In this document: in pieces, positions 40,755-63,390 of the stretch
Layout: every line of letters begins with the position of its first letter
How positions within the stretch are numbered: position 1 is the stretch's first letter
Source of the DNA: a virus
Reading direction: 5' to 3' (one strand)
DNA: 64,000 nt
Virus record (IMG/VR): IMGVR_UViG_3300006802_000086
Span: 1-64,000 of that record
Position numbers and translations under genes: made by a program
The notes under the pieces: generated by a model
What the model saw: the letters and a program-made list of their open reading frames with translations, nothing else
What the model was told of the DNA's origin: nothing
The model's database searches: none

Positions 40755-41132
40755 ATGAACTGCAAGCTTGAAGAAATGTTTAAGTTAAGGCTATCATTCA
40801 TGAATATGATGAAGGAACACATTCCCGAGTCTTATCCTGAATTTCCAGTTGATATTACTGAAAAGTCATCTCAGCAAGTTTGCAGAGATTTAGCTCTCAA
40901 AGGTGTTGAAGAAATGTTTGAAGCTCTGCAACATCTCAAAAACTGGAAACCACATCGTAAGACTGAAATTAATGACGCCTTAAATAAGGAAGAGTTTTTA
41001 GAAGAAGTCGTAGATGCACTAAATTATTTTTTTGCGATGCTTATTGTCACAGGTTTTGATGACAAAGAGCTGTTTGAAGCCTATTTAAAAAAGGACAAGA
41101 AAATTAGAGAGAGGCTATTAGATGGATACTAA
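40755..41132 (+). CDS. All-alpha NTP pyrophosphatase (dimeric dUTPase/dCTPase/MazG-like)
   Basis: EEMFEA..WKPH..EEVVDALNY..YLKK..R..GY. Confidence 0.75.
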   Translation: MNCKLEEMFKLRLSFMNMMKEHIPESYPEFPVDITEKSSQQVCRDLALKGVEEMFEALQHLKNWKPHRKTEINDALNKEEFLEEVVDALNYFFAMLIVTGFDDKELFEAYLKKDKKIRERLLDGY

Positions 41133-41379
41133 AATTGTTTTTAACGGAAGACAATTTACAAATACTGTAGATCTAACAAAAGAAATAAAACAATTAAAAC
41201 CTGAAGAACTTAAGTTTTCAGGTTCTTTAGTGTACGATTCAGGGTTAAGTATGTTTTTGTTTAATTCTGTAAATTATGAAAAGATTGAGTATTATATGAA
41301 GGAAATTAACAATATTAACAAAACTAGTGAGGTGGAATTTGAATTTCAAACAGATGATGAAAAAGCAGGAAGCTTATAA
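41122..41379 (+). CDS. Hypothetical protein
   Basis: Overlapping ORF in the operon. Confidence 0.45.
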   Translation: MDTKIVFNGRQFTNTVDLTKEIKQLKPEELKFSGSLVYDSGLSMFLFNSVNYEKIEYYMKEINNINKTSEVEFEFQTDDEKAGSL

Positions 41380-42289
41380 TAGAAAAATCGTTGGAAGATC
41401 CGATCAATTATCACAAGAATTAAAAGAAAAAATAACACAAGAAAATGTTTTATGCGCTCATTCAGAATTAAGTGCTTTAGTTAACGCTACACACTATAAA
41501 AATCATCACACTCATTCAGAGCCTGTAGCAAATAGGTCGACTGTTCTTTATGAAACAGTTGATGTAATTCGCTATATGATTGCAACTTTAAATACGTGGG
41601 GTATTACGTCAGGAGAATTTGAAAAAGCCTTTGATAAAAAAGATGTATATCTCAATAAGCATCACGAGATGCAACAAAAAAAATGGGATGGTGTACAACC
41701 TGTAGCAATTGTTGACATTGATGATGTATTAGCAAATTTTAGAGAAGGATTTTCTAATTGGCTGAAGAAAGAGTACGGAGTAGAGCCTGATGTTAATTCT
41801 AAAGAATACTACTTTATTACAGCACTATCAAAAATCAATATGAACTCAGAAACTGTCTTTAAGAGGTATTTAGATAGTGGAGGATTTGCAGATCTTACTA
41901 TAGATACAGACAATTTAGAACTTTTACATCAACTTAAACACCAAGGATATTGGATACATCTTCTCACAGCAAGGCCTGAGGAAGAATTGCAATGTCTATA
42001 TGATACTTACTACTGGATTTGGCTGCAAAATATTCCTTGCGATGCAATTTCATTTTCACCTGAAAAATTTAGATGGTGTGCCAAGTCAAAATATTATGAT
42101 GCAGGTGCTATTAAATTTGCAATTGATGACGCACCTAAACACGCACAAGACTATGCTAAGCATGGAATAAAATGCTTCGTTCCTAAAAAGTCATACAATG
42201 AGCATCTTCACGATAAAAATATTTTTCTTTATAAAAATTATAGTCACATTACTAATTTATTAATGATGCAAGGTTTGTTAAGGGAATGA
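41327..42289 (+). CDS. Fusion of a degenerate all-alpha NTP-PPase domain and a HAD 5'(3')-deoxyribonucleotidase (start may be 41339 or 41354)
   Basis: N-terminal ELSAL...YETVDVIRY...FDKKD; C-terminal VDIDDVLANF, LLTARP, AIDDAP. Confidence 0.7.
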   Translation: MRWNLNFKQMMKKQEAYNRKIVGRSDQLSQELKEKITQENVLCAHSELSALVNATHYKNHHTHSEPVANRSTVLYETVDVIRYMIATLNTWGITSGEFEKAFDKKDVYLNKHHEMQQKKWDGVQPVAIVDIDDVLANFREGFSNWLKKEYGVEPDVNSKEYYFITALSKINMNSETVFKRYLDSGGFADLTIDTDNLELLHQLKHQGYWIHLLTARPEEELQCLYDTYYWIWLQNIPCDAISFSPEKFRWCAKSKYYDAGAIKFAIDDAPKHAQDYAKHGIKCFVPKKSYNEHLHDKNIFLYKNYSHITNLLMMQGLLRE

Positions 42290-43740: not shown

Positions 43741-44727
43741 ATGCCTCAAAACAGTAACTTAAAACCTATTACGTTGCCGATGCAACTTAAATTTGGTGAA
43801 AAGCCAAAAACAGAATTTTACAACAATTTATCTGCACTTAAAGTTGAACTAGTTGATTCACCTACCAGATCGCAGGCACTCAATGTTGCATGGCAATATG
43901 TCAAAGCAACATGGGCAGATCATCATGATGAGACAAACCCATCTACTACATCTTTGCAAGAATTGTCAGCCAATCTAGAAGACGTGCTTAATTTTCGCGC
44001 ACTTCCAACTCCAATGGAGTGCCTAGGATTTACCTTTAAATTAAGCGGGCTTTCATTCCAAGAAGTAACTCATATCATTCGACATCGAGCTGGATCATTT
44101 GCTGCACAGTGCACAGGTGACCGTGATCTTCGACATGATCCTGCTGTTATTCCAGAAGCTGTACAAAATAGTCCAGAATTTTTAACTCGTTGGAAGAAAT
44201 TAGTAGAAGATAGCAAACAACTTTATGCAGACATGACAGACTCAAAAGATGTGTCTATGATGGACGCACGAATGATCCTTCCAAAAGCAATGACGTCCTT
44301 TTATCTTATGCGCCTCAATCTTAAAGATCTACTAGGTTTTATTGCGCAACGTCAAGATATGCAAATTCAACCTGCTGCTGATAATCTTCTTGCTGTCTAC
44401 ATGGCACGTGAAGTCCTAAAGATTTTACCAGAAGCTAGCACGCGCATTAATTTCGACAAACCAGACATGCATTATGTGAAAACTTTCCGTGTACCTGATG
44501 GTAAAGGTGGTCATACATCTCGAGGTACAAATCTGTACTGGCCAGAACCTAAGAATGATAAGTTTGAGTATCATCCTGATGACAGTATTTACCAGGCACG
44601 CCGCGAAGATATCAACGGGACACACAATCCAGGAGGTGATACTGTATTTACAAAATTGTGGTCAGAAACAATTGAAGAGATCGATGAAATGAAATATGAA
44701 TATAACAAATTTATGGGGAGAGAATAA
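43741..44727 (+). CDS. thyX: Divergent flavin-dependent thymidylate synthase (ThyX-like)
   Basis: HIIRHRAGSFAAQC (RHRx7S with Ser replaced by Cys), DARMILP, NLKDLLGFIAQR. Confidence 0.7.
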   Translation: MPQNSNLKPITLPMQLKFGEKPKTEFYNNLSALKVELVDSPTRSQALNVAWQYVKATWADHHDETNPSTTSLQELSANLEDVLNFRALPTPMECLGFTFKLSGLSFQEVTHIIRHRAGSFAAQCTGDRDLRHDPAVIPEAVQNSPEFLTRWKKLVEDSKQLYADMTDSKDVSMMDARMILPKAMTSFYLMRLNLKDLLGFIAQRQDMQIQPAADNLLAVYMAREVLKILPEASTRINFDKPDMHYVKTFRVPDGKGGHTSRGTNLYWPEPKNDKFEYHPDDSIYQARREDINGTHNPGGDTVFTKLWSETIEEIDEMKYEYNKFMGRE

Positions 44728-44728
44728 T

Positions 44729-45210: not shown

Positions 45211-48200
45211 TTAAGCTAATGCTTTCTTGTTAGGCACTATTTTAACTAAAATTAAGAAAACTGTATGTGATCTGTTAATTGATATCTTTTTCATAGTTCC
45301 ACCTGTTGTCGATGTGTTGTCTAAATTACCACCAATTAATTTTCCTCCTGAGTAAACGTTCATATGTGCACCTGACTGAGGCTCCGATCCTGCAAATTTT
45401 TTAAAGGTTTTCATACCGCAACCAGAAGGAAGTCCTCTTTTAGAACTATAACCGTTAAGCGAAAAGACGCCGTCTAGAAGGTTTAAGTCAGATCTAGATT
45501 CGACCTCTTCCCTAGTAAAGGGTAGCAAAACTACTTGCCCGATAAAACTTTCAGGATCATTTTCAACTTCTTGTCTTTTTAACATTAATTGTGCCCACGG
45601 GTATGAAATCCCCATTTGCTTTGGCACGCTGTTTACTATATCGTAGGCAGGATGCGAAGGAGTTACCATTGCATTGAAAGTATGTCCACTCCAAGCTACT
45701 CTATTTAAGTACTTCCAACTATCTTTAATATTGACAGGCATGAATGTATCTGGGTGCATCAGCGCTATTTTTCCGTCACCATGATTTGTAATTGCTTGCT
45801 TGACAACAATATCATTTATTTTCTTAAGACCTTCTTCTGACTTTTCGCCAAACCCTGTGATTTGTGAAAGTAATCTCTCACCCTCAGCAGCACCTGCAGA
45901 CATGTCCAGCTGTTCAAACTTAATAGGTAAAGAATCCTCATCTAAAAATGCATGTTCCTTCGGATTAAAATTTTTCTTAGAAGCTTTTGAAGAGTTGTCC
46001 TTGACAGAATTCGAAGACTTCGATACTTGTTTTTCTTTTTCAATAATTTTTTTCTGAAGTTCACTATTTCCTTTAAACGATTTACTTACTGCATCTGGGC
46101 CGCTATAATTACCGTCCTTAATATCTTTGTATACTTTGGCAGGATTAATATAGTTTTCTTTAAATAAATAATTTCTAATTTTACGAACTGATTCATTCAA
46201 AGGTTCAATCTTAAAATTCTTGTCAACACCTCTTTTTGCCTGTCCTATCTGTCCGGACACGGAATCGACAGCAATAACAATGTCATCAATATAGAATTTA
46301 TAATATCTGTTTTTCATACCTCTGCCAGCTGTATATGTTCCAGGCTCACCTTTTTTATCTCCGTAAGCCATTTCCATTTTTCCACCGGTATCTTGATTTT
46401 TCTTTTTATTGAATTCCTGCGTAGCTTTTTTAATAGCTTCCGGGTCTTGTGCGAGTCTTACCATCTCTGCAACGCCTGAAGGATTTTTCTTTTTCGGATC
46501 ATTAAGTACTAAACTAGCCACTTGTGCAGCGTTATTTTTAAATTTAAGAATCGTTTCTTTTTTAACACCCTTGTCAATTGCTGCTTTTATAATCATGTCA
46601 ATATTTTTTTCGATCCAGGCCACCCAAGCTTTGTCTGTGTTAGGCCCCCAATCTCCATCAACTGTAGTACCAATAACACCTTGGACATATTCAACATCTT
46701 TTTTATTATTTTCTATTAAGACACTTTTAATTGCTTTTCTTAAGCTTGCTTCTGTTAAAATCATTTTACCTTTCCTTGTTTTAAAAATATTTTCTGCCAT
46801 GGCTTTTTGCTTAGGCATAATTTCTGATTCAATTGTTGCAACAAATTGCTCACCAGGCTTTTCATCAACATGCACACCATCTCTCGAGCTAGTAACATTT
46901 GACTCAAACCACGGGTAGGGATCGATAACATTAATTCTTCCTGACATTCCTAATTGAGACTCAACAGCATCAATACCTGCAACAATCTCTCTGTTTCTTT
47001 TTGCTCGAGTTGCTTTAAATTTTGAAACTTCTCGCTCAGGTTTTCCAGGGGTGTTGACATATGTTGTTTTCTCTGTAGGTTTAACTGCAGGCGGCGCCAA
47101 GACCCAAGTTATTTGTGCGTCTTCTGGGGCATTTTGTAAAATATCTTTTGCCAAATAACTAGCTCTGCTAGAACCGTTGCCGCCTAGCGTAAGGATAATA
47201 TTGTTTGTTCTGCTGACTGCATCAATAATTTTATCTTCCCCAAACTCACTCATGACGCCTGCTGGTGTAGCTCCGTTCTTCTGAAAAAAGTTCTTTCCCT
47301 TCGTAGCTGTGCCTAGGCGTTTTCTAATTCCTTTTCCTAGACCGCTGTTGCCTTGACTGTCTGCAATGTATACATACGGGAGAGGTTCGTCAGAAGATTC
47401 TCTCTGTTGTTTCTGTTCGCCACTTTCTCCTTCAAATCCTAATAAAAATAATTTAGCTTCTTCGTGCCTTCTCTTTTCTAGGCCCTGCACATATTCACCC
47501 TTGCTAGTTCTAGGTTTTGCATCTATTACATCAGCTGCTTCTTTATAACGACCTTGATTAATTAATTGCGTTATAGACTCGCCTTTATTATTTTTAAATT
47601 TATTTAAAGCACTTGCACCTCCATTAAAGCAATAACTTGCTAATGCAACAAACATGTTATGAGTGATTGGTGCTTTTAATTGTGACTTAAATACTCGTGT
47701 ATGTTTTGCAACGTCGCTTCCAAAGAGTTCTAGAGCTTGTTGTAAATTCATTTCCTTTGATCCACTTCCTAAAAATTCTTTAAATTTTTCTCTTTCGTTT
47801 GATCTAATTAAGTGCCCAATGCCAATTGTTGGATATCCGCTTGACTCTTCATAGCTATTTATTGTTCTCCCGCCTTTGTCATCATAAACTTTTGATCTAA
47901 AACCTTCACCGCCTTTTATAAATACTTGAATTTCTTTAGACACGTCTTCGTATTGACTAGCACTTTTTAATGTTTGATCCGCAGTAAATTTTCCACCACC
48001 AGCCTTGTTAATTTTTGCCTCAAGACCTTTGACAGCTTTGTTAACAATTTTAGCGTCTGAATTTGAATTATTACCTGGCGAAGTAGGAATATTAAGTTTT
48101 GACTTTGATTTCACAGCTTTCTTAAGTGTGTCAGCTTTTTTCTTGATAGTATCCTTAAACTCACTGCTAATTTTCTCTGCACCTTTTATGCTCCCAGATT

Positions 48201-49272
48201 CAATTCCTTTTTGGACTTTGTCAATAATTTTGCTTACATCTAATTTTCTCTCTCTTAGAATTTTATATCTATGTCTTTTTAGAATTCTTTGTTCTTTTAA
48301 GTATTCCCCGCCTTTTCCTCTAGGTCTTTGGTAAACTTCACCATCAGTATCAATAGCAACTGCAACATCATCAATCCAAAATTTTAAATAGTCTTTGTCG
48401 ATACCTTTGCCTGTCTCTGCTTTTTTAAACCCCATTAATACTGGCTCGTTATTTGTTCCAAATTTTTTAAGATACTCTTCATACTCTTCTTTAAAAGTTG
48501 TATATGCTAACTTAAAATGGTCATTGTTAAAACTACCTCGCCTTCCTAAGGTTTTGTCATCGCTAGGCAGGTCTTTAAGCGCATTTGCAATTTCTTCTTT
48601 AGATTTATTATCATTAATCCAGTCTCGAAACATATCACCCTTATCTTGGTTTAAATCTTTAGGAATTCTTTTAAGCTGCTCATCTGTAAATTCATATTTT
48701 TTATCTTTTGAAGATTTCGATTGTGATTTTGTTCCACCATATTTTTTATCTAAATTCTCACCACCTTTCTTGTTGATAGGTGTCCAAGGTCCATTATTTT
48801 TACTGTAACTCCACCCAAATTCTGCAGAAGGATCTTTTTTGTATTTGTAAACACCGTCGCCATCATCGTATATTTTTTCTTTAGAAAAATTTTCTATCTT
48901 TCCTATTTGTTCAGCGGCCGGCCCTGAAATAACTTTATATTTGCCATTACCTAAGTCTTCGTAAGTAAAGCCTGATAAGTCTTTGTCAGATTTAATCCCA
49001 AGTTCTTGAGCATTTTTACCTAAAGTTTCTTTTTTGGTAAATTCTTCATAATAAGTTTTAAGCATGTAATAAGCTACTCTTTTCCCATCAGGAACATCTG
49101 CCTTATCTAAAGCTGCCTTTATATTTGGTGCTTTTGTAGATTTAAAACGCAAAGCATTGTCATTAGAGCCAAAACCTGTGTCAAAGCCTATATACTTTTT
49201 TGATTCTTCTTGCTCGCGAAGAAGTCTTTTGAGTGATTTAATTTTAATAAGTTTGTTTAGATTGTTATTCAT
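45211..49272 (-). CDS. Multidomain cell-envelope hydrolase: GH24 lysozyme, SGNH esterase, PG-binding domain and possible amidase-like C-terminus (1353 aa)
   Basis: EGFRSKVYDD..GYPTIGIGH..ALASYCFN..GLEKRRHEEAKLF; IADSQG/LGGN/DGVH; VDGDWGPNT; AWSG...H...IGGN. Confidence 0.75.
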   Translation of the reverse strand: MNNNLNKLIKIKSLKRLLREQEESKKYIGFDTGFGSNDNALRFKSTKAPNIKAALDKADVPDGKRVAYYMLKTYYEEFTKKETLGKNAQELGIKSDKDLSGFTYEDLGNGKYKVISGPAAEQIGKIENFSKEKIYDDGDGVYKYKKDPSAEFGWSYSKNNGPWTPINKKGGENLDKKYGGTKSQSKSSKDKKYEFTDEQLKRIPKDLNQDKGDMFRDWINDNKSKEEIANALKDLPSDDKTLGRRGSFNNDHFKLAYTTFKEEYEEYLKKFGTNNEPVLMGFKKAETGKGIDKDYLKFWIDDVAVAIDTDGEVYQRPRGKGGEYLKEQRILKRHRYKILRERKLDVSKIIDKVQKGIESGSIKGAEKISSEFKDTIKKKADTLKKAVKSKSKLNIPTSPGNNSNSDAKIVNKAVKGLEAKINKAGGGKFTADQTLKSASQYEDVSKEIQVFIKGGEGFRSKVYDDKGGRTINSYEESSGYPTIGIGHLIRSNEREKFKEFLGSGSKEMNLQQALELFGSDVAKHTRVFKSQLKAPITHNMFVALASYCFNGGASALNKFKNNKGESITQLINQGRYKEAADVIDAKPRTSKGEYVQGLEKRRHEEAKLFLLGFEGESGEQKQQRESSDEPLPYVYIADSQGNSGLGKGIRKRLGTATKGKNFFQKNGATPAGVMSEFGEDKIIDAVSRTNNIILTLGGNGSSRASYLAKDILQNAPEDAQITWVLAPPAVKPTEKTTYVNTPGKPEREVSKFKATRAKRNREIVAGIDAVESQLGMSGRINVIDPYPWFESNVTSSRDGVHVDEKPGEQFVATIESEIMPKQKAMAENIFKTRKGKMILTEASLRKAIKSVLIENNKKDVEYVQGVIGTTVDGDWGPNTDKAWVAWIEKNIDMIIKAAIDKGVKKETILKFKNNAAQVASLVLNDPKKKNPSGVAEMVRLAQDPEAIKKATQEFNKKKNQDTGGKMEMAYGDKKGEPGTYTAGRGMKNRYYKFYIDDIVIAVDSVSGQIGQAKRGVDKNFKIEPLNESVRKIRNYLFKENYINPAKVYKDIKDGNYSGPDAVSKSFKGNSELQKKIIEKEKQVSKSSNSVKDNSSKASKKNFNPKEHAFLDEDSLPIKFEQLDMSAGAAEGERLLSQITGFGEKSEEGLKKINDIVVKQAITNHGDGKIALMHPDTFMPVNIKDSWKYLNRVAWSGHTFNAMVTPSHPAYDIVNSVPKQMGISYPWAQLMLKRQEVENDPESFIGQVVLLPFTREEVESRSDLNLLDGVFSLNGYSSKRGLPSGCGMKTFKKFAGSEPQSGAHMNVYSGGKLIGGNLDNTSTTGGTMKKISINRSHTVFLILVKIVPNKKALA

Positions 49273-49403: not shown

Positions 49404-50396
49404 ATGAAAAAAGTATTTATTACCGGTGAAAAAGGTTTTATTGGAACAAATTTGGCCAAACGTGCCAAATTACACGGTTTCGAACATGTCTCTGGTGTGC
49501 ATGCACAAAACGAAGACGCAGTTTTCGTATCACAATATGTCACAGAAAAGGGTGAACCTTGTGTGCATCAAAATAGCGAGGAAGCATGGCAATCTTTCTT
49601 TGAAGTCAACAGCATCGACTATGTAATCCATAATGCAGCAGTTGTAGGTACAGATGTAGTTGCACTCAATGCAAAAGAGTCAACATTAACCAACGTGCAA
49701 GGTACTTTCAACATCTGTCGTGCTGCAAAGAAATGCGGTATTCCAGTCTGTTATATGGGAACCACAGTTATTTATGACACACCTAAGTATCAACAATCAG
49801 CTATTGTCGAAGACTCCGATCGCGGCCCTAGTACATTCTACGGTTGTCAGAAACTCTCAGCTGAGGAAGTTGTCAAGTCTCATAGCAGCAAGTGGATGAT
49901 CGTCCGCCCACTCTTTGCTTATGGCGGTGAAGGTGATATGAATTCTCTTATTGCCAAAACGATCTATGCAAAACTCAACGGTGTAGAAAAGATCCAAATG
50001 TTTCTCGATCCTAGTAAGATTAAAGACTACTTACATGTCAATGACTACTGTGACGGTGTTTTCTCTTGCATGAAAGAAGACAAGTGCTGGAACAATGACT
50101 TTAATATCGCCGCAGAAACACCACTTGTCACCGGTGAAATTATCAAATTAATGGACGAAGTGTGTGGTCAGAGTTTCGCAGATACTGTAGAATGGCTTCC
50201 GCAGACTGAATATATGGGAAATCATATCTTATCAAGTGCAAAAGCAAGAGAGTATACTGGCTGGTCTCCACGTATATCACTGGCTAAAGGTATTCGCATG
50301 TCATACGAAAGTATTCTCAAGTCAGAAGGTTATAATCCTCTGCGTTATCTTGAAGAAGCAGCAGAGCGCAATATTGATTTAACAGAGTATTTTTAG
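49404..50396 (+). CDS. NAD-dependent nucleotide-sugar epimerase/dehydratase (extended SDR)
   Basis: ITGEKGFIG, HNAA, YGCQK (YxxxK), RP..AYG, KDYLHV.D; SD GAGGAGG. Confidence 0.9.
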   Translation: MKKVFITGEKGFIGTNLAKRAKLHGFEHVSGVHAQNEDAVFVSQYVTEKGEPCVHQNSEEAWQSFFEVNSIDYVIHNAAVVGTDVVALNAKESTLTNVQGTFNICRAAKKCGIPVCYMGTTVIYDTPKYQQSAIVEDSDRGPSTFYGCQKLSAEEVVKSHSSKWMIVRPLFAYGGEGDMNSLIAKTIYAKLNGVEKIQMFLDPSKIKDYLHVNDYCDGVFSCMKEDKCWNNDFNIAAETPLVTGEIIKLMDEVCGQSFADTVEWLPQTEYMGNHILSSAKAREYTGWSPRISLAKGIRMSYESILKSEGYNPLRYLEEAAERNIDLTEYF

Positions 50397-55099: not shown

Positions 55100-58000
55100 A
55101 TGGACATTAAATTATTAACACCACCCGATCGATTTGTTGGCTTTCATGGTCATACAGGATTTTCTGTTTTTGACGGTCTAGGTTATCCATCTGATCATAT
55201 CGACTTTGTACTTGAAAACGGTATGGATGCTTGGGCACTAACTGATCACGGAAACGGCAGTGGATTAGCACATGCTTATAAACATGCACAAAAAATCCAA
55301 AAGTCTGGTCGCAAATTCCGTCAAATTTACGGTTGTGAATTCTATTTTGTTCCGTCACTTAAAGACTGGAAATCCGACTACGAACAAGCCAAAGTAGATC
55401 GAGCTGCAGCAAAACAAGCTGCACTTAAAGAAGACGAAGAAGGCGGTCATATTATTGAAAACGAAGATGAGACTAAGACTTTGGATTTAGGTAAAGACGA
55501 ATGGAAACGACGTTATCATCTGGTTGTTACTGCACAAAACCGCGAAGGTTTAGGTAATTTATTTACCCTGATTAAACGTGCCTATACAGACGGCTTTTAT
55601 AGATATCCTCGCATTGACTTTGATCTACTTAAGCAGTATGGAAAGGGTTTGACAGTATCGACAGCTTGCCTAGGTGGCATCTTTTCTAATCGAATTATGC
55701 GTGGTAACGCATTAAACCTCACAGACGAACAAATTCAAAACGAATTATTGTACTTATCTGATCGATTTGTTGATGCTGTGGGCGAAGACAATTTCTATTT
55801 AGAGGTGCAGTTTAATAGACTTAAGCAACAACATCTCGTAAATCATCATTTATTGCGTCATGCTGATAAAACAGGGCTTCAGCTTATTGCGACTCCTGAC
55901 TCTCATTATTACTCACCGGATAAATGGGAGGCAAGAGAGTTATATAAGAAACTAGGGTGGATGGGTAATGATCCATCACCACTTCCTGAATTCGAGGATC
56001 TTAAGTGTGAACTATATCCTAAAAATGCACAACAAATGTGGGATGAGTTTACTCGACACTATGATGAGTACAAAGAAACATATGAAGGTTACGAAGAGGC
56101 AATTAAAAAGTCAATTGAAATTACACATGATATTGCATGGGAAAAGTGTGAAGACTGCTGGATTGATACTTCTGTTAAACTTCCCGATTTCAATCGACCT
56201 GATCAAACAGCTTTCCAACAGCTTGCAGACAAAGTCAAGCATGCAATCGTTAAGGAAGGCCTTCATACAAAAACTGAGTATGTCGAAAGAGCTAAACACG
56301 AATTAGAAGACATTAAATTCTTAGGTTTTGAAAATTATTTTCTAGTGATGAATGAAGTATTTCATAAAGCTGCTGATCATACCTTGTTCGGAGCAGCACG
56401 CGGTTCTGGTGGTGGATCACTTGTAAATTACTTGTTAGGAATCACGCAGGTCGATCCGCTTAAATATGACTTACTTTGGGAACGTTTTCTGGGTAGACAC
56501 AGAACTTCATGGCCAGATATTGACTCCGATGCAGGTGATCGTGATGCACTAATCAATGCAGCGCGTGAGTTATACGGTGATGAGGCTGTTATTCCAGTGT
56601 CTAACTTTAACACACTTAAGCTTAAATCCTTAGTAAAAGACATTGCCAAGTTTTACGGTGTCGATTTTGGTGAAGTCAATAAAATGACAGGACCTCTCCA
56701 AGATGAAGTCATGGCACAAGCACGAGATGAAAACACAGAAAAGTCTGTGTTTGTTCTTAAACACGCAGACTGTATGGAATATTCAAAAGGTTACCGCTCT
56801 TTTATGGAAAAATATCCAAAAGTAAAGGATCATATTGAATCCCTCTTTATGCAAAACAGATCGATTGGTCGACATGCCGGTGGAGTTATTATCGGCCCAC
56901 CAGAAGACTTAGAACAATCAATGCCAATTATTGGTGTTCGCGGTGAACTACAAACACCTTGGACAGAAGGTATGAACTTTCGAAATCTTGAAGACAATGG
57001 GTTTATTAAGTTTGACTTTCTTGGACTTACACTTCTAAAAGATGTTGAAAACTGCATCCGACGAATTCTTACACGTGAGCGAGGCGAAGAACCTACGTTT
57101 CTAGAAATCCGCGATTGGTTTGACAAACATCTGAACTGTCGATATGTTGATCAGGACGACGATGCAGTTTGGAAACATGTCTATCATCAACGTCGAAAGG
57201 TAGGTGTATTTCAGTTCACTGCTGAAGGTGCACGCCGATTTTGTGAAGATGCAAAACCAACAAACATTGAAGAGCTGGCCGCACTAACAGCAATTTATCG
57301 ACCCGGGCCTCTTCGTGCCAACGTTCATAAAAAGTATGTCAAAGATAAGATGAATTCAGATGAAATTCATTATGCACACCCAATCATTCAGGAAATTCTC
57401 GGCCCAACTTTTGGACATGTAACATTCCAAGAGCAGTTCATGCTTCTCGCACAAAAGCTAGGCGGGTTTACACCAGCTGAGTCAGATAAGCTTCGAAAGA
57501 CCCTGGTAAAGAAATCCTTGGATACAATGGGTAAGAAAGGAGATGAACGTGAAGCAGCTAGAGTTAAATTTGTGACCGGTGCGAAAGAAATCAATGGCGT
57601 ACCAGAACATATCTCCCAAGAGCTATGGGAACGGATTGAATTTTTCTCAGTTTACGGCTTTAATAAATCTCACGCTATTGCCTATGCAATTGGGTCTTAT
57701 TATGCAGCGTGGCTTCACACATACTATGAAACTGATTGGTTAGGTACAATTCTTCAGTCTGAAAACAATAACCCAAATGCTTTATCAAAAGCAATTGCCG
57801 AGATTAAAGAAATGGGCTATCGCATTGAACTACCAGATGTTAATGAATCAGGTACGTATTGGCAATGGTCAGATCGAAAGCAAGCATTTATCCCACCTTT
57901 AACATCAATTAAAGGCGTAGGAAAAACTGCAGTTGTTGAAATTATGGAAAATAGACCGTATGAGTCAGTTGACGATATGTTGTTTGATAGGGAAGGGAAG

Positions 58001-58618
58001 TGGCGTCATTCTAAACTTAATAAAACTGGATTTGCATCACTGTGCAAAGTAGAAGCATTTAACGGATTACGTGAAATGTGGGACGGTACAATTGACAACC
58101 ACAATCAACTATATAATATTATTATTGAAAATTATAACACACTAAAGAAAAGTCGATGGGGTATGACAACCAGAAAAGCAAAGAAAGAAAATGCGCCTGA
58201 ATATCTTCCTCTGCTTATCGAACAAACAAAAGACACAGAAGACTGGAGTCGTATTGAAAAGTTAAATGCATATCAAGAGTTATGTTCAGCAACACGTGAT
58301 GATTTGGCATTTCCTGACGATATGATGGAAAAAATTAGAAGTGCCGGTGTAAAGTCTGTTTTAAACATGCTACCTGGAGAGAAATGTGTTGCTTGGTGCT
58401 GCATTGTTGATATGATACAAAAGAAAACTAAAAATCAAAAAGTATTTTATCGACTTAAAATTACAGATTATGAAAATAATACAGGGTGGCTTCGTATGTG
58501 GGGTGACAAACCTGAAGAAATGGAACCTTATTCTATCTGGCTTGTTGAGGCACATAATGACCCTAGTTGGGGTGCTAGCACAAGTGTAAGAAAAATCAGA
58601 CCTTTAGTTGTTGACTAA
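55100..58618 (+). CDS. dnaE: DNA polymerase III alpha subunit (family C)
   Basis: PHP domain HGHTGFS.FDG, ALTDHG, DSHY; RGSGGGSL, PDIDSD, GRHAGG, KFDFLGL, RPGP, YGFNKSHA, PDVNES. Confidence 0.96.
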   Translation: MDIKLLTPPDRFVGFHGHTGFSVFDGLGYPSDHIDFVLENGMDAWALTDHGNGSGLAHAYKHAQKIQKSGRKFRQIYGCEFYFVPSLKDWKSDYEQAKVDRAAAKQAALKEDEEGGHIIENEDETKTLDLGKDEWKRRYHLVVTAQNREGLGNLFTLIKRAYTDGFYRYPRIDFDLLKQYGKGLTVSTACLGGIFSNRIMRGNALNLTDEQIQNELLYLSDRFVDAVGEDNFYLEVQFNRLKQQHLVNHHLLRHADKTGLQLIATPDSHYYSPDKWEARELYKKLGWMGNDPSPLPEFEDLKCELYPKNAQQMWDEFTRHYDEYKETYEGYEEAIKKSIEITHDIAWEKCEDCWIDTSVKLPDFNRPDQTAFQQLADKVKHAIVKEGLHTKTEYVERAKHELEDIKFLGFENYFLVMNEVFHKAADHTLFGAARGSGGGSLVNYLLGITQVDPLKYDLLWERFLGRHRTSWPDIDSDAGDRDALINAARELYGDEAVIPVSNFNTLKLKSLVKDIAKFYGVDFGEVNKMTGPLQDEVMAQARDENTEKSVFVLKHADCMEYSKGYRSFMEKYPKVKDHIESLFMQNRSIGRHAGGVIIGPPEDLEQSMPIIGVRGELQTPWTEGMNFRNLEDNGFIKFDFLGLTLLKDVENCIRRILTRERGEEPTFLEIRDWFDKHLNCRYVDQDDDAVWKHVYHQRRKVGVFQFTAEGARRFCEDAKPTNIEELAALTAIYRPGPLRANVHKKYVKDKMNSDEIHYAHPIIQEILGPTFGHVTFQEQFMLLAQKLGGFTPAESDKLRKTLVKKSLDTMGKKGDEREAARVKFVTGAKEINGVPEHISQELWERIEFFSVYGFNKSHAIAYAIGSYYAAWLHTYYETDWLGTILQSENNNPNALSKAIAEIKEMGYRIELPDVNESGTYWQWSDRKQAFIPPLTSIKGVGKTAVVEIMENRPYESVDDMLFDREGKWRHSKLNKTGFASLCKVEAFNGLREMWDGTIDNHNQLYNIIIENYNTLKKSRWGMTTRKAKKENAPEYLPLLIEQTKDTEDWSRIEKLNAYQELCSATRDDLAFPDDMMEKIRSAGVKSVLNMLPGEKCVAWCCIVDMIQKKTKNQKVFYRLKITDYENNTGWLRMWGDKPEEMEPYSIWLVEAHNDPSWGASTSVRKIRPLVVD

Positions 58619-58654
58619 ATACATATATATGCATGCATTACTTATGAGGTGTCT

Positions 58655-59200
58655 ATGAAGATTACAAGAATGGAATTAAGAAGACTAATTCAAGAGTCTT
58701 TAAGCATGAACGAAAGTTTGTCACTAATCATTAGCGGCGTTTTGGCTGCCCCTGTGCTTTTAGAAGGGCTAGCCCACATAATAGAAAAAGCAGGGAAAAA
58801 GTTTGGAAGAGAAAAGGCCGAGCTCAAAGCAGAAAATCTCGAGCACTTTGCTCATAAAGTACACGGTGTGTATGAAGCACCGATTAAATTTTTAATTAAA
58901 AAGTCAGCAAAAGCTGCAAAAAAAGAGATATCAGAAGAAAAAGTACAAAAATATACTGATATTATTTTTGGTATTATTATTGCATGCTTAATGGCTAGCG
59001 CAGGTTTATCAATACTAGAACACGCTAAACACTTAGGACCGCATGCTGAACTAGTAACTACAGGAATGTTAGCTCTAGAATCTGCTGATATTGTTGTCGA
59101 AGGAGTTGAATTATCACAAATTATTTCTCGTCTCAAAAATCCGGCGAGTCATGAAAAATTAGCAGCAGCTATTGAAGAGCATTCAAAATCACATCATTAA
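58655..59200 (+). CDS. Leader-bearing membrane protein
   Basis: MKITRMELRRLIQESLSMNE; hydrophobic helices; His-rich; SD GAGGTG. Confidence 0.6.
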   Translation: MKITRMELRRLIQESLSMNESLSLIISGVLAAPVLLEGLAHIIEKAGKKFGREKAELKAENLEHFAHKVHGVYEAPIKFLIKKSAKAAKKEISEEKVQKYTDIIFGIIIACLMASAGLSILEHAKHLGPHAELVTTGMLALESADIVVEGVELSQIISRLKNPASHEKLAAAIEEHSKSHH

Positions 59201-59227
59201 AGCTTTGAAAGCAATAAGAGACCGGCG

Positions 59228-61573
59228 ATGAAAATAACACGTAGACAGTTAAGTACATTGATAGAAAATTACTTAAAGCAAGATAATATACTTTTTGAAA
59301 TAAAAAAGAAATCATTTAATCAGTTTATAGCAAGAGGTTTAATGACCCAGCAAGAATTTGATATATACGTTTTTCGAAATGACTGGGTTGCGCCTTTTAC
59401 TGATCCTGTAATACGCAAAGTTCTCTTCAATACATTGAACGCTGATGAAGGGCATAGTGTTAGAGAAATTGCTGAGCGTGGTCAAGAGTTTTTGGAAAGA
59501 ATTGTTGATCTTGCCAGAACACCTGACCCGGACAACCCAGGTCAAAATATGCTCAAGTCCACACGCGTAAGAGGTACTTCAGGAGTTAATCCTAATGATA
59601 TCATAGATATAAATAGCAAGATAGATGTTGACAACCCTGACAATACAGCAGCAACTTATAATGATATGTCAAGCTACTTAGAGAACCGATCTGGTATTGC
59701 TAAGAGAGCTGACGTGCTAACAAACGCAATTCAGGCAGGATTTGACGGCACTGATACATCTAATTTTGAAGTAATTTCTGCACCGGGAAGCCCTTATGTT
59801 GTGACTTATCCTAAAACCTATAAAGGATCGATAGCTGTTGCACGTATGGGCCCAGACTTTCAGTATTACGATCCGAACACCTCTGCAGGTCGACAAGTGA
59901 TTGGAAAAATGACATGGTGTACATCAGTTGATAGTGCAGGAAACATGTTCTTAAATTATCACCGCGCACAAAATCTGCACATGTACTACTTAGTCAAAGT
60001 TAAAGACTATAACCCTACTAGCCCAGATAGAAAACTTTGCTTAAGTTTTGCCAAGACAGACTCCGGAGACGTAATATATCGAACCGGGCACTCATCTGTC
60101 GACGGAGATAACAAAGCACTAAGTGAGAAAGACGCAAAAGAATACATTGGCAAGTCATTGTTCGAAACAATTGTCAATGATGTCAAAAGACCAGAAAGAT
60201 TAGTAATCAATCCTGTAAAATACTACAAGTCAATAAATTTAGAGCAATATATTGACATGAGAAACGCACATCAGAATGAACAAGATACAAAGCTTTTTGC
60301 TAAAGAAGCTGAACAAATTGCAAAATATACAGAAAATAATGACATTATAAAAGCAATCCTAGGTGATAACAATCCAATTGTTTCAGGAGTTGCTTATCCT
60401 TATATAAAGGACAGTAAAGTCTTTGACTCAATTATAGAAAAAAGCAATGGAAACATAGATGTTTTTATTAACCTCTTTAAGGCAAAAGCACTACAACCTC
60501 AGCATATCAAGAAAATTTATATGACGTCTAGGCAAGGAGGAAAAGTTGATCCTGACATTATGGTATATGCTACAGAGCACGCATCAACGCCCCTCGATGT
60601 ATTGAATTTAGTTTTTGATGATGCGCTAAATGATCGGTTAATTCCAAAAGAGTCTGGTTTTAAAACGTATAATTCACTCTTTGTAATATGTCAATTAGTT
60701 AGGAGTAAAAATGCTTCATCTGATTTACTTAGAAAAGTGTATGCATATTTAGACAAAAATAGAAATATTGATTATACTAACAGCTATATTCCATTAATCG
60801 CTAGCCATCCAAACACACCTCCTGATTTAATTGCAAAAGAAATCGAAGGTCTAGTAACACCCTCAAGCAATCCTTTGTCAGCACACTCCGGAACATCATC
60901 GTCAGGTCATAGTAGGACAGATGCCGCGATGATGATAAGAAGAATCATCAGTGGTATTAGCAATGAAATGTTTGAAGCAATTGGTGAAAAAACATTTAAA
61001 AATATATTAGACTATTTTGTCATACAAGATTTTGCAAATTATCAACCGTTAGCTATAGCAAATCGATTTACAGAAAACCATAGATTGTCCTTGGAATATG
61101 CGCTAAAAATGTTTGAATATGCAATGTTTAAAGAAAACGAGCCTAAACCTCGAGGCAAAGAAAGTTTAACCTTAAAATGGGCAGATCTAGCAACTGCATT
61201 TGCTGAGAATCTATCAATGTACGTTTATCCTGTAAGCATTTATATTGATGAAAATCCACATTACAATGATTACATGATGGAAGTTGCAATGCCTCTCTCT
61301 GAACAAGACTTAAATGGTACAACAGAGATACATGGTCTTTTAAATGGATTTTATGGACAATCTCATACAATACAGCTCCAAAAGTCAATAGAAGAATATA
61401 TTCAAAAATATAGCGAACAGCCTGAAAACGATAATCCTGACTATAATATCTATGCACAACAGTTGTTGAAAATAGTGAAAGAAATAAATAGAAAAAAGCA
61501 GGAGTATGCTCAATATTCTCGAAGAACAGGGTTCCAATTCCCTAGCAAGTATAGCAATATGTTTGAATATTAA
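59228..61573 (+). CDS. Leader-bearing protein with WCT domain and LRV-like helical repeats
   Basis: MKITRRQLSTLIENYLKQ; MTWCTS..GNMFLNY; HASTPLDVL, SKNASSDLL, SHPNTPPDLI. Confidence 0.6.
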   Translation: MKITRRQLSTLIENYLKQDNILFEIKKKSFNQFIARGLMTQQEFDIYVFRNDWVAPFTDPVIRKVLFNTLNADEGHSVREIAERGQEFLERIVDLARTPDPDNPGQNMLKSTRVRGTSGVNPNDIIDINSKIDVDNPDNTAATYNDMSSYLENRSGIAKRADVLTNAIQAGFDGTDTSNFEVISAPGSPYVVTYPKTYKGSIAVARMGPDFQYYDPNTSAGRQVIGKMTWCTSVDSAGNMFLNYHRAQNLHMYYLVKVKDYNPTSPDRKLCLSFAKTDSGDVIYRTGHSSVDGDNKALSEKDAKEYIGKSLFETIVNDVKRPERLVINPVKYYKSINLEQYIDMRNAHQNEQDTKLFAKEAEQIAKYTENNDIIKAILGDNNPIVSGVAYPYIKDSKVFDSIIEKSNGNIDVFINLFKAKALQPQHIKKIYMTSRQGGKVDPDIMVYATEHASTPLDVLNLVFDDALNDRLIPKESGFKTYNSLFVICQLVRSKNASSDLLRKVYAYLDKNRNIDYTNSYIPLIASHPNTPPDLIAKEIEGLVTPSSNPLSAHSGTSSSGHSRTDAAMMIRRIISGISNEMFEAIGEKTFKNILDYFVIQDFANYQPLAIANRFTENHRLSLEYALKMFEYAMFKENEPKPRGKESLTLKWADLATAFAENLSMYVYPVSIYIDENPHYNDYMMEVAMPLSEQDLNGTTEIHGLLNGFYGQSHTIQLQKSIEEYIQKYSEQPENDNPDYNIYAQQLLKIVKEINRKKQEYAQYSRRTGFQFPSKYSNMFEY

Positions 61574-61574
61574 A

Positions 61575-61603
61575 ATGTAATTAGTGCAATAGTTTAATAT
61601 AAT
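61575..61603 (+). promoter_or_regulatory. Sigma70-like promoter
   Basis: ATGTAA-N17-TATAAT. Confidence 0.7.
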
Positions 61604-61624
61604 ATTACCAAAAGAGGTAATACT

Positions 61625-62536
61625 ATGTCATACACTACACCAATAAACTATATTTTTATTGAAGGGCCTGACTGCAGTGGGAAAACAACACTTTATGAAA
61701 TGATCCACAAAGAGTCAGGTTATCAATGGAATATTCAAGATCGATCAGCGTTATCAATGTTAATCCATGCCCGATATTATGGTCGTGATACATTTAATCA
61801 TGTTGAACAGTTAAAAAAAGAGCTATACAACATTAACAATCAGTTGGTTATATGTCTACCGGATTGGAAAGTGATTGTTGAACGATTTCAAAAACGCGGC
61901 GACCCTATTCAAAATATTACTAGCCTTCGCAAAATCTATGAACTGTTTGAAGAGGCAGTACAAGAGTTTCAAAACTATGCAAACGTAACAGTTATTAGAC
62001 ATGAAGTAAATAAGCACACAGTAAAAGATTTAGTTACATGGTTTAAATATTTTGAAAGACGTTCTTTGAGTGAGTTGCAAACTTATGTATTACAAACAGT
62101 TGCAGCAAGTGGTAAAAAAGAAGCTTTAGGTTTTAATTTTGTTCATTATGACACCGGTGATTTTAATGATATTAATAAACAGATGTTATTGTATGATAAA
62201 GAAAAAGATTATTATCAAAAAATTGAGACTGCAGTTTTTGACAAGATTAAATCAGAAATGAAAGGAGAAAACGAATATGAAAGACCGGAAGAATTGGACT
62301 CGAGAAGATTTATTTATACTGATGATTCTTGTATTAGTCTTGCTCATTTTTTAGTTCGTGACGGTTATATGGATGCTAAATTCTTTTTGCGATCATCAAA
62401 TGTTAAAGATACATTGCGATATGATTTAAATTTTGTTAAACACTTGTCAGGCGAGGTTTTTCGTTATTTCAAATGCGATAGACAAGGTGACTATTGCAAA
62501 ATTGAAGTTGTCATTAATTCAGGACATGTAATATAA
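61625..62536 (+). CDS. dNMP kinase fused to a thymidylate-synthase-like catalytic core
   Basis: IEGPDCSGKTT, QDRS..S..Y, RGD; C-terminal DSRRF..SCI..HFLVRDG..FLRSSNV...RYDL...SGHV. Confidence 0.7.
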   Translation: MSYTTPINYIFIEGPDCSGKTTLYEMIHKESGYQWNIQDRSALSMLIHARYYGRDTFNHVEQLKKELYNINNQLVICLPDWKVIVERFQKRGDPIQNITSLRKIYELFEEAVQEFQNYANVTVIRHEVNKHTVKDLVTWFKYFERRSLSELQTYVLQTVAASGKKEALGFNFVHYDTGDFNDINKQMLLYDKEKDYYQKIETAVFDKIKSEMKGENEYERPEELDSRRFIYTDDSCISLAHFLVRDGYMDAKFFLRSSNVKDTLRYDLNFVKHLSGEVFRYFKCDRQGDYCKIEVVINSGHVI

Positions 62537-62970: not shown

Positions 62971-63390
62971 ATGAAAGTTAAAATTAAAAAATTGCACACA
63001 GAGGCAGTAATTCCCCAATATGCAAAACCAGGTGATGCAGGTATGGATTTGACTGCGGTTCACGTTTCAACTGATCAATATGGTTGTTTTACATATCACA
63101 CAGGATTAGCAGTTGAGATACCACCTTGGCACGTTGGTCTCCTGTTTCCAAGATCTTCTATATATAAAACTGGACAAAGACTTACAAATTGTGTAGGCGT
63201 AATTGATAGCGGTTATAGAGGCGAAATCATGATGAAGTTCTCTCTATCAGCTAATCGCAATGAATATCAAATTGGTGATAGAATTGGTCAGCTAATTATT
63301 CTTCCATACCCTCAAATTAAGTTTGAAGAAGTCGACTCACTTGATAGTTCTGAACGCGGCGAAGGTGGTTATGGAAGCACCGGTAAATGA
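62971..63390 (+). CDS. dut: Trimeric dUTPase
   Basis: AGMDL, TGLA, PRSS, GVIDSGYRGEI, GDRIGQL, RGEGGYGSTG. Confidence 0.95.
   Translation: MKVKIKKLHTEAVIPQYAKPGDAGMDLTAVHVSTDQYGCFTYHTGLAVEIPPWHVGLLFPRSSIYKTGQRLTNCVGVIDSGYRGEIMMKFSLSANRNEYQIGDRIGQLIILPYPQIKFEEVDSLDSSERGEGGYGSTGK

What the first reader, a model, noticed from the sequence alone, without database searches (positions are those of the whole stretch)
61625..62536. dNMP kinase fused to a stripped-down thymidylate-synthase core with a cytosine-type specificity residue
Seen: the last ~85 aa follow the order of TS motifs (SRR, catalytic Cys in SCI, F.V.DG, RS, terminal H). RSxD has become RSSN, and the E. coli Asn177 position appears to be Asp (TLRYDL; compare GFRND in T4 dCMP hydroxymethylase, as I recall it). 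The N-terminal folate-binding part looks absent. Established: Asn versus Asp at this site determines dUMP versus dCMP preference. Inference: a dCMP-acting, possibly folate-independent C5-modifying enzyme channelled to its own kinase. ThyX could already supply dTMP, which would free this domain for another job.
Basis: partly seen in the sequence, partly recalled or inferred. Interest (0 to 1): 0.72.

Follow-up and report, generated by a model that had tools for sequence, protein, structure and literature searches.

The report
Kinase fused to minimal dCMP-type thymidylate-synthase domain
An uncultured marine giant phage encodes one protein that joins a small nucleotide kinase to a stripped-down thymidylate-synthase-type domain with a cytosine-type active site, so it and hundreds of relatives probably make an altered cytosine nucleotide for their DNA, though the chemistry is untested.

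Summary
ORF 61625-62536 (303 aa) is real and has its own promoter-like site and ribosome-binding site.

Residues 1-145 are a YorR/dTMP-kinase-like P-loop kinase. Residues 146-303 fold confidently (pLDDT 94) into a 158-residue core of the thymidylate synthase (TS) fold. The seven best structural matches are all TS-superfamily enzymes. The best is the flavin-dependent dCMP 5-hydroxylase of phage HY126 (about RB69 gp48).

Profile comparisons give these E. coli equivalents:
- C236 = Cys146
- R227/R228 = Arg126'/127'
- R256-S257 = Arg166-Ser167
- D267 = Asn177 (the dCMP-type Asp)
- N259 = Asp169, the change published as diagnostic of 5-hydroxy-dCMP synthases

The folate-side small domain (W80, W83, Y94) and the C-terminal 55 residues are missing.

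The fusion is a core gene of a DnaE-encoding jumbo-phage lineage. It is present in 81 of 81 loci, usually directly after dnaE, and no ThyA or DHFR was found.

One caveat is new. Position 259 switches among D, N and E at least 11 times on the family tree, so the product (5-hydroxy-dCMP or something else) cannot be read from it.

Earlier follow-ups in this scan found the same family on other DNA and read it much the same way.

Verdict: a new variant of a known kind; chemistry untested.

The parts
61575..61603 (+). Promoter-like site: ATGTAA, 17 nt, TATAAT
   Evidence: Read directly from the sequence. The consensus scanner did not list it because its -35 is weak, so this is a pattern only.
61611..61617 (+). 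Shine-Dalgarno-like AAAGAGG, 7 nt before the ATG
61625..62536 (+). Whole ORF, 303 aa: kinase fused to a minimal TS-fold domain (P0001)
   Evidence: 708 homologues in 90% clusters and 235 representatives at 50%, nearly all about 300 aa with both domains.
61625..62059 (+). N-terminal P-loop (d)NMP-kinase-like domain, residues 1-145. P-loop GPDCSGKT at 61664-61687, DRS at 61739-61747, LID RFQKRGD at 61883-61903.
   Evidence: phrog_761 'thymidylate kinase' 4.7e-13. Profile hit to YorR 2axp, 8e-6. VIA: YorR Z 13.3, dTMP kinases Z about 10.5. 14 of 49 members hit Pfam Thymidylate_kin and 5 hit dNK.
62060..62533 (+). C-terminal minimal thymidylate-synthase-fold domain, residues 146-303
   Evidence: AF2 pLDDT 94.1. 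Foldseek and VIA top hits are all TS superfamily. hhalign and hmmsearch.
62300..62308 (+). S226-R227-R228, equivalent to E. coli ThyA S125-R126-R127 (phosphate-binding arginines supplied across the TS dimer)
   Evidence: hhalign alignments. R227 in 188 of 195 and R228 in 187 of 195 members.
62330..62332 (+). C236, equivalent to the catalytic nucleophile Cys146
   Evidence: Cys in 187 of 195 members.
62390..62401 (+). R256-S257-S258-N259, equivalent to R166-S167-C168-D169. Asn replaces the folate-activating Asp.
   Evidence: R and S in 189 of 195. Position 259 is N in 154, D in 31, H in 4 and E in 2 of 195. In 81 viral loci it is D in 39, N in 26 and E in 15.
62423..62425 (+). D267, equivalent to Asn177 of ThyA and Asp179 of T4 dCMP hydroxymethylase (the base-specificity residue)
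   Evidence: Asp in 191 of 195 members.
62525..62527 (+). H301, equivalent to His207 of ThyA. The protein ends two residues later.
   Evidence: His in 187 of 195.
55100..58618 (+). DnaE-type DNA polymerase III alpha. It is the conserved upstream neighbour of the fusion in related phages; in this window two unknown genes (58649-59200 and 59228-61573) lie between them.
   Evidence: Pfam. DnaE is in 81 of 81 loci, median centre-to-centre distance 2.6 kb.
62971..63390 (+). Trimeric dUTPase, downstream neighbour
   Evidence: Pfam PF00692, 2e-21
43741..44727 (+). Atypical long ThyX paralogue (328 aa)
   Evidence: PF02511, 66 bits. Larger related genomes carry this form plus a canonical ThyX of about 250 aa.
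40755..42289 (+). Two all-alpha NTP-pyrophosphohydrolase-like genes, the second fused to an NT5C/HAD nucleotidase. Candidate dCTP/dUTP-clearing enzymes.
   Evidence: phrog_12184 1.3e-13, phrog_173, Pfam NT5C. The specificity is inferred.

Best explanation
The gene encodes a bifunctional enzyme of phage nucleotide metabolism.

The C-terminal 158 residues are a minimal thymidylate-synthase-fold enzyme. It binds dCMP: Asp267 reads the cytosine, and Arg256/Ser257 plus Arg227/Arg228 from a partner subunit hold the phosphate. Cys236 attacks C6 and activates C5 for substitution.

Three things point away from methylene-tetrahydrofolate as the cofactor: the folate-side small domain and the C-terminal lid are deleted, the folate-activating Asp169 is Asn here, and the closest relatives are flavin/O2-dependent dCMP 5-hydroxylases. 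The most likely reaction is therefore folate-independent, most plausibly hydroxylation to 5-hydroxy-dCMP.

The fused N-terminal kinase then phosphorylates the modified dNMP to the diphosphate, the step that host kinases do poorly. The altered cytosine can then be polymerised by the phage DnaE.

Shown here: the fold, the residue equivalences, conservation, the fusion and the synteny. Inferred: catalysis, substrate, cofactor, product, dimerisation and channelling.
For: - Fold: domain-only AF2 model, pLDDT 94.1. The best VIA match is 9iqc, the HY126 dCMP hydroxylase with dCMP and FAD: Z 11.8, 141 of 158 residues aligned. It is followed by ThyA, MilA and T4 dCH at Z 10.8-8.4, then a gap to Z 5.4. 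The Foldseek top hits are 9iqu and 9iqc.
- Sequence: hhalign against 5-hydroxy-dCMP synthases gives E 7.5e-9. It aligns C236, RSSN with RSQN, D267 with D194, and H301. hmmsearch against PDB finds T4 dCH and AfhB first.
- Published rule: Lee et al. 2026 (PMC13326640) report that N177D plus D169N marks 5hodCMP synthases. Nine diverse D169N homologues made 5hodC in vivo, and a UV-detectable 5hodC peak in DNA needed co-expression of the cognate dNMP kinase (expression alone gave only a trace detected by ion chromatogram). The window's protein carries both changes and its own kinase.
- The title of PDB 1bjg says that D221(169)N does not promote opening of the folate imidazolidine ring.
- Catalytic and phosphate-binding residues are kept in 187-191 of 195 members down to about 25% identity.
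- Kinase: P-loop, DRS and Arg-rich LID motifs; YorR Z 13.3; TMPK-like hits.
- Context: the gene sits in a nucleotide operon (DnaE, SDR, TK, DHH, dCMP deaminase) in 81 of 81 loci. There is no ThyA or DHFR but there is ThyX in five related records of 200-284 kb. NTP-pyrophosphohydrolase genes lie nearby.
Against: - No activity data exist for any member.
- The domain lacks the small domain that known 5hodCMP synthases keep, including the invariant FYGPR (Tyr94-equivalent) segment of alignment A3. How a flavin would bind is therefore unknown.
- Position 259 is N in the window but D or E in 54 of 80 related viral loci. It changes state at least 11 times on the tree, with no clearly co-switching partner residue. 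Either the residue does not decide the chemistry in this family, or the chemistry is not the published one.
- No DNA glycosyltransferase was found next to the gene. GT2 genes occur in only 3 of 5 large relatives and lie far away.
- No member reaches E <= 0.01 on Pfam PF00303.
Confidence: 0.4

Rival explanations
1. The domain is a minimal but still folate-dependent dCMP hydroxymethylase or methylase that makes 5-hydroxymethyl- or 5-methyl-dCMP, as T4 gp42 does. The kinase plays the part of T4 gp1.
For: T4 dCMP hydroxymethylase is the best sequence hit of the C-domain profile (E 6.6e-4) and aligns over 155 columns at 27% identity. More than half of the related viral loci carry Asp or Glu at the Asp169 position. 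The 'xRDG' Arg245 is shared with T4 dCH and MilA.
Against: - The window's protein has Asn at the Asp169 position. The title of PDB 1bjg states that this change in TS does not promote opening of the cofactor imidazolidine ring.
- The W80/W83 region and the C-terminal lid that hold folate in TS are deleted.
- Frequent D/N/E switching is hard to reconcile with a strict need for the acid.
- There is no DHFR in five large relatives. This is weak evidence, because a hydroxymethylase does not need one.
Confidence: 0.15
2. The domain catalyses some other cysteine-driven reaction on dCMP that needs neither folate nor flavin. Examples are another C5 substituent, C5 exchange or dehalogenation-type chemistry, or Cys-assisted deamination. 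This could yield a base not yet described.
For: - The nucleophile, the phosphate clamp and the cytosine-reading Asp are invariant, while the cofactor-side residue 259 drifts among D, N, E and H.
- The cofactor-side architecture is largely deleted.
- Family-specific conserved residues have no securely aligned TS counterpart: Y196/Y197, E211 and the G214-x-N216-x-Y218 loop.
- From my own knowledge: TS itself carries out folate-independent C5 exchange and dehalogenation.
Against: There is no positive evidence for any particular alternative. A zinc dCMP deaminase is already encoded in the same operon. The closest relatives all use a bound cofactor.
Confidence: 0.2
3. The TS-like domain is no longer an enzyme. 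It serves as a dCMP/dNMP-sensing or dimerising module for an ordinary dNMP (for example dTMP) kinase.
For: The domain has lost about 40% of a normal TS, including the Tyr94 and Trp80 regions and the C-terminus. No member reaches E <= 0.01 on Pfam PF00303. The kinase part on its own looks like a dTMP-kinase or dNK relative.
Against: The catalytic Cys is kept in 187 of 195 members. The E58-like Glu193 and His301 are also kept across sequences that share only about 25% identity. A purely binding or dimerising module has no evident need for the nucleophile.
Confidence: 0.1

Closest known systems
Flavin/O2-dependent 5-hydroxy-dCMP synthases (dCMP 5-hydroxylases) of the TS superfamily: HY126 AfhB (PDB 9iqu, 9iqc), RB69 gp48, DLP3 gp80
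   Same: - TS fold, and the best structural match (Z 11.8).
- Catalytic Cys and the SRR motif.
- R-S-x-N in place of R-S-x-D.
- Asp at the Asn177 position.
- The 'xRDG' Arg and the terminal S-x-H-V motif.
- A functional need for a dNMP kinase.
   Different: - Here the domain is 158 aa rather than about 235 aa.
- It lacks the small domain (the invariant FYGPR/Tyr94 region) and the last 12 or so residues.
- It is covalently fused to the kinase.
- No member reaches E <= 0.01 on PF00303, whereas all listed RB69-like proteins carry PF00303.
- The Asn is not fixed within the family.
T4 gp42 dCMP hydroxymethylase together with T4 gp1 dNMP kinase
   Same: The pathway logic is the same: modify dCMP at C5, then phosphorylate it with a phage kinase. 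gp42 is the best sequence hit of the C-domain profile. Asp179 corresponds to D267, and R-N-D to R-Y-D.
   Different: T4 uses two separate proteins. gp42 is full-length (246 aa), folate-dependent, and has Asp at the 169 position.
ThyA thymidylate synthase (E. coli and others)
   Same: Same fold (Z 10.2-10.8), with C146, R166/S167, R126'/R127' and H207 retained.
   Different: ThyA has Asn177, Asp169, W80/W83/Y94 and a C-terminal lid, and it acts on dUMP. The sequence signal is weak (hhalign probability 74%). No ThyA is found in this phage lineage.
YorR of the B. subtilis SPbeta prophage (PDB 2axp/3kb2) and dTMP kinases
   Same: The N-terminal domain has the same fold (Z 13.3, 23% identity, 140 residues aligned). 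It has the P-loop, a DR motif and an Arg-rich LID.
   Different: YorR is a stand-alone protein of unknown substrate. No TS-like domain is attached.

Membership tests
Thymidylate synthase / dCMP hydroxymethylase superfamily (fold level) | TS alpha/beta fold with a central sheet | tested here: met
   Domain model pLDDT 94.1. The seven best VIA chains are all TS superfamily (Z 11.8-8.4, 133-143 of 158 residues aligned), and the next chain scores 5.4. Foldseek gives 380 hits at E<=0.001; the 50 listed are all TS-fold chains.
Thymidylate synthase / dCMP hydroxymethylase superfamily (fold level) | Catalytic Cys (E. coli C146) and the phosphate clamp R166/S167 plus R126'/R127' | tested here: met
   C236, R256, S257, R227 and R228 are aligned by hhalign and hmmsearch and kept in 187-189 of 195 members.
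Thymidylate synthase / dCMP hydroxymethylase superfamily (fold level) | Match to Pfam PF00303 above the gathering score | tested here: not met
   PF00303 is not among the hits for P0001 at E<=10, and none of 49 diverse members hits it at E<=0.01. One short relative gives E 0.0047, below the cut-off.
Thymidylate synthase / dCMP hydroxymethylase superfamily (fold level) | Folate-side small domain (W80, W83, Y94) and C-terminal lid | tested here: not met
   The alignments to RB69 gp48, T4 gp42 and ThyA place large target-only insertions here. The protein ends 2 residues after the His207 equivalent. Structural matches stop at chain residues 209-226.
5-hydroxy-dCMP synthases (Lee et al. 2026; He et al. 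2026) | Asp at the Asn177 position (dCMP preference) | tested here: met
   D267 aligns with RB69 D194 and T4 D179. Asp in 191 of 195 members.
5-hydroxy-dCMP synthases (Lee et al. 2026; He et al. 2026) | Asn at the Asp169 position (the published diagnostic) | tested here: met
   N259 in RSSN aligns with N186 in RSQN. However, across 81 related loci the position is D in 39, N in 26 and E in 15, with at least 11 switches.
5-hydroxy-dCMP synthases (Lee et al. 2026; He et al. 2026) | Acidic residue at the Leu143 position | tested here: inconclusive
   D233/D234 precede C236, but the loop before the Cys is deleted, so the positional equivalence is uncertain.
5-hydroxy-dCMP synthases (Lee et al. 2026; He et al. 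2026) | Flavin binding and O2-dependent hydroxylation of dCMP | not testable with these tools
   This needs the purified protein or an in vivo LC-MS assay.
dNMP / dTMP kinase-like P-loop kinases | P-loop, DR(S/Y) motif, Arg-rich LID and the kinase fold | tested here: met
   GPDCSGKT, DRS and RFQKRGD. YorR Z 13.3 and TMPKs Z about 10.5. phrog_761 4.7e-13.
dNMP / dTMP kinase-like P-loop kinases | Pfam Thymidylate_kin above the gathering score | tested here: inconclusive
   P0001 scores 18.7 bits against a cut-off of 27. The relative P0262 scores 41.4 bits. 14 of 49 members match at E<=0.01.

The most novel reading that the evidence does not exclude
The minimal TS core, with its cofactor side deleted and the Asp169 position drifting among D, N and E, performs a C5 (or other cysteine-driven) reaction on dCMP that is neither the folate nor the published flavin chemistry. 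If so, an abundant, uncultured marine jumbo-phage lineage carries a cytosine derivative not yet described, made and phosphorylated by a single 303-aa polypeptide.
Probability: 0.2. Interest if true: 0.85.

Novelty: new variant of a known kind. Interest (0 to 1): 0.68.

Why it matters
TS-superfamily enzymes that alter dCMP or dUMP are the entry points to most known phage DNA hypermodifications. This family would extend that in three ways.
- It would be the smallest working version of the TS fold (about 155 aa).
- It would be the first TS-superfamily base-modifying enzyme I am aware of that is fused to its own nucleotide kinase. I found none in the papers searched.
- It would be a marker, invisible to Pfam, for modified cytosine in a widespread lineage of marine and freshwater jumbo phages.

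Practical consequences follow. Modified C would affect how such viromes are sequenced, cut and amplified. A compact two-step enzyme would be a convenient tool for making modified dNDPs. The D/N/E variation at the Asp169 position offers a natural experiment on what switches this fold between folate and flavin chemistry.

Tried and rejected
- Single-sequence searches (Pfam, NCBIfam, phmmer against PDB) gave nothing for the C-terminal half. Only profiles and structure revealed it.
- tblastn against cultured phages found only a weak kinase-domain hit in a pelagiphage. The DnaE has no close cultured relative either, so the host and phage family stay unknown.
- A search for stand-alone short forms of the mini-TS domain found 13 hits, nearly all on tiny contigs and so probably fragments. 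This gives no good evidence for a split form. P0227 looks like an LpxB chimera.
- I looked for a residue co-switching with N259 versus D/E that would define two functional classes. Only diffuse, lineage-like associations appeared.
- I looked for a linked DNA glycosyltransferase. None lies in the conserved neighbourhood. GT2 genes are distant and occur in only 3 of 5 large relatives. The conserved unknown 212-aa neighbour gave no lead.
- The adjacent SDR is an NDP-sugar-epimerase-like enzyme, but its link to DNA modification is only positional.
- The He et al. 2026 Nat Chem Biol paper on AfhB is not held, so the flavin-contact residues could not be compared.
- Model coordinates are not exposed, so the interdomain packing and the equivalence of the long helix 194-213 (TS helix B or helix G) could not be settled.

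Full report
**What is there.**
The window is the first 64 kb of a 78,992-bp IMG/VR virus record that CheckV rates 26% complete. It carries a contractile-tail sheath gene, a class II ribonucleotide reductase and a DnaE-type polymerase. The virus is therefore a large tailed phage with no close cultured relative.

It is preceded by ATGTAA-N17-TATAAT and an AAAGAGG ribosome-binding site.

**N-terminal domain, residues 1-145.**
It has a P-loop (GPDCSGKT), a DRS motif and an arginine-rich LID (RFQKRGD).
- It matches phrog_761 'thymidylate kinase' at 4.7e-13.
- The family profile hits B. subtilis YorR (2axp) at 8e-6.
- The AF2 model superposes on YorR with Z 13.3 and on dTMP and deoxynucleoside kinases with Z about 10.
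- Among 49 diverse relatives, 14 hit Pfam Thymidylate_kin and 5 hit dNK.

It is a (d)NMP or deoxynucleoside-kinase-type domain. The exact substrate cannot be read from sequence.

**C-terminal domain, residues 146-303.**
Single-sequence searches see nothing. Three other lines of evidence agree that it is a cut-down thymidylate-synthase fold.

(i) Structure. The domain-only AF2 model (47-sequence alignment, pLDDT 94.1) finds TS-fold chains in all 50 listed Foldseek hits (380 hits at E<=0.001), with TM-scores of 0.46-0.64 normalised to the query. With VIA-align, the seven best of 48,161 chains are:
- 9iqc, the HY126 'monooxygenase with dCMP and FAD': Z 11.8, 141 of 158 residues aligned
- four ThyA chains: Z 10.8-9.8
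- MilA: Z 9.7
- T4 dCMP hydroxymethylase: Z 8.4, 21% identity

The next chain drops to Z 5.4. The full-length model gave the same families.

(ii) Profile against profile. The family against 22 RB69-gp48-like proteins gives probability 94.6-95.8% and E 7e-8 to 7.5e-9. Against T4 gp42 alone it gives 92%, and against E. coli ThyA alone 74%.

(iii) Profile against PDB sequences. T4 dCH (E 6.6e-4) and HY126 AfhB (E 2.3e-3) are the top hits.

**Residue equivalences** (coordinates checked):

| This protein | E. coli ThyA | Note |
|---|---|---|
| S226-R227-R228 | S125-R126-R127 | |
| C236 | C146 | |
| R256-S257-S258-N259 | R166-S167-C168-D169 | |
| D267 | N177 | T4 D179, RB69 D194 |
| H301 | H207 | |
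| E193-x-x-Y-Y | E58-x-x-W-F | lower confidence |

Arg245 in 'VRDG' is shared with T4 dCH, MilA and RB69 gp48, but not with ThyA.

**What is missing.**
- the small domain between helix B and the SRR strand, which holds W80, W83 and Y94 (and the invariant FYGPR segment of RB69-like enzymes)
- the loop before the Cys
- everything after the His207 strand, about 55 residues in ThyA

Helix A, the long strand and one long helix are present in residues 146-225.

**Conservation.**
The family is large. There are 708 clusters at 90% identity and 235 representatives at 50%. Almost all are about 300 aa with both domains, and none has a meaningful name.

Counts in 195 full-length members:

| Residue | Members keeping it |
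|---|---|
| C236 | 187 |
| D267 | 191 |
| R227 / R228 | 188 / 187 |
| R256 / S257 | 189 / 189 |
| H301 | 187 |
| E193 | 188 |
| P-loop Lys (K20) | 190 |

A 47-sequence C-domain alignment, reaching down to 25% identity, keeps E193, R227, R228, C236, R245, R256, S257, D267 and H301 invariant. Keeping the nucleophile this consistently argues for catalysis rather than mere binding.

**Comparison with what is known.**
Lee et al. (NAR 2026, PMC13326640) showed that RB69 gp48, DLP3 gp80 and nine diverse homologues make 5-hydroxy-dCMP. They reported four relevant points:
- the oxygen comes from O2
- the enzymes bind a flavin
- N177D together with D169N is the family's signature
- expression alone gave only a trace of 5hodC; a clear peak in DNA needed co-expression of the cognate dNMP kinase

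HY126 AfhB (9iqc/9iqu) is nearly identical to RB69 gp48.

The window's protein carries both signature changes, is closest in structure to AfhB, and has the kinase built in. In addition, the title of PDB entry 1bjg records that TS D221(169)N 'does not promote opening of the cofactor imidazolidine ring'. An Asn here therefore argues against methylene-folate chemistry.

**A caveat I consider important.**
In 81 related IMG/VR loci the Asp169 position is D in 39, N in 26 and E in 15, while every other key residue is constant. On a maximum-likelihood tree the state changes at least 11 times. One example is an E subclade nested inside the window's N clade. No other column switches cleanly with it.

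There are two possible readings. Either this residue does not decide the chemistry in the minimal enzymes, or the chemistry differs from both published types. The specific product call (5-hydroxy-dCMP) is therefore only the most likely of several.

**Genomic context.**
Clustering all ORFs of 81 loci shows a fixed module: DnaE (81 of 81), the fusion (81 of 81), an NDP-sugar-epimerase-like SDR (75), thymidine kinase (67), a DHH phosphoesterase (61), dCMP deaminase (69) and an Fe/Mn SOD (65).

This window also holds:
- an Fpg/Nei glycosylase
- two NTP-pyrophosphohydrolase-like genes, one fused to an NT5C nucleotidase
- a nucleoside-deoxyribosyltransferase-family gene
- a second SDR
- a trimeric dUTPase
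- a phosphoribosyltransferase

Five related records of 200-284 kb (70-100% complete) have no ThyA and no DHFR. Four of the five have two ThyX genes, one canonical and one long and atypical. The window's ThyX is the atypical one.

No DNA glycosyltransferase is linked to the gene.

**Verdict.**

The gene is best described as a new architectural variant, minimal and kinase-fused, of the dCMP-acting branch of the TS superfamily. The product is most likely 5-hydroxy-dCMP but is not settled.

Earlier follow-ups in this scan reached much the same reading on relatives in other genomes. My analysis was done before I read them.

Noticed in passing
window 43741-44727; related records G001-G005: The ThyX in the window is a long (328 aa), weakly scoring paralogue (66 bits). 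Four of five large related phage records carry this atypical form plus a canonical ThyX of about 250 aa (E about 1e-50). The atypical copy may do something other than make dTMP.
   Followed up: partly
window 44696-45178: This is a nucleoside 2-deoxyribosyltransferase-family gene (PF05014, 1.5e-16). The family also contains dNMP/hmCMP N-glycosidases such as MilB and DNPH1 (from my own knowledge). The gene overlaps the end of the atypical ThyX and is present in 46 of 81 related loci.
   Followed up: partly
window 58649-61573: Two unknown genes (183 and 781 aa, no Pfam hit) lie between dnaE and the fusion in this window. In most related loci dnaE is the immediate upstream neighbour. Notes by other first readers say these genes share an N-terminal leader motif with other genes of the window; I did not test that.
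   Followed up: no
L003:2226-3227 (record 64225-65226) and window 49404-50396: There are two extended-SDR NDP-sugar epimerase/dehydratase-like genes. One of them is the conserved downstream neighbour of the fusion in 75 of 81 loci. Its best NCBIfam matches (TviC, GalE) fall far below the cut-offs, so the sugar is unknown.
   Followed up: partly
L003:5339-6016 (record 67338-68015): An Fe/Mn superoxide dismutase gene is conserved in the same operon (65 of 81 loci). This is unusual for a phage, and it would fit O2/flavin chemistry nearby. That link is speculation.
   Followed up: no
L057:12061-13089 and L033:8541-8987: Some relatives insert a GMP-reductase/IMPDH-like gene (24 loci) and a small cupin-like 'cysteine dioxygenase' PHROG member (23 loci) into the same nucleotide module. 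Neither is present in this window.
   Followed up: no
window 45211-49272 (- strand): This is the only large minus-strand gene (1353 aa). It contains a phage lysozyme domain (PF00959, 6.5e-18).
   Followed up: no
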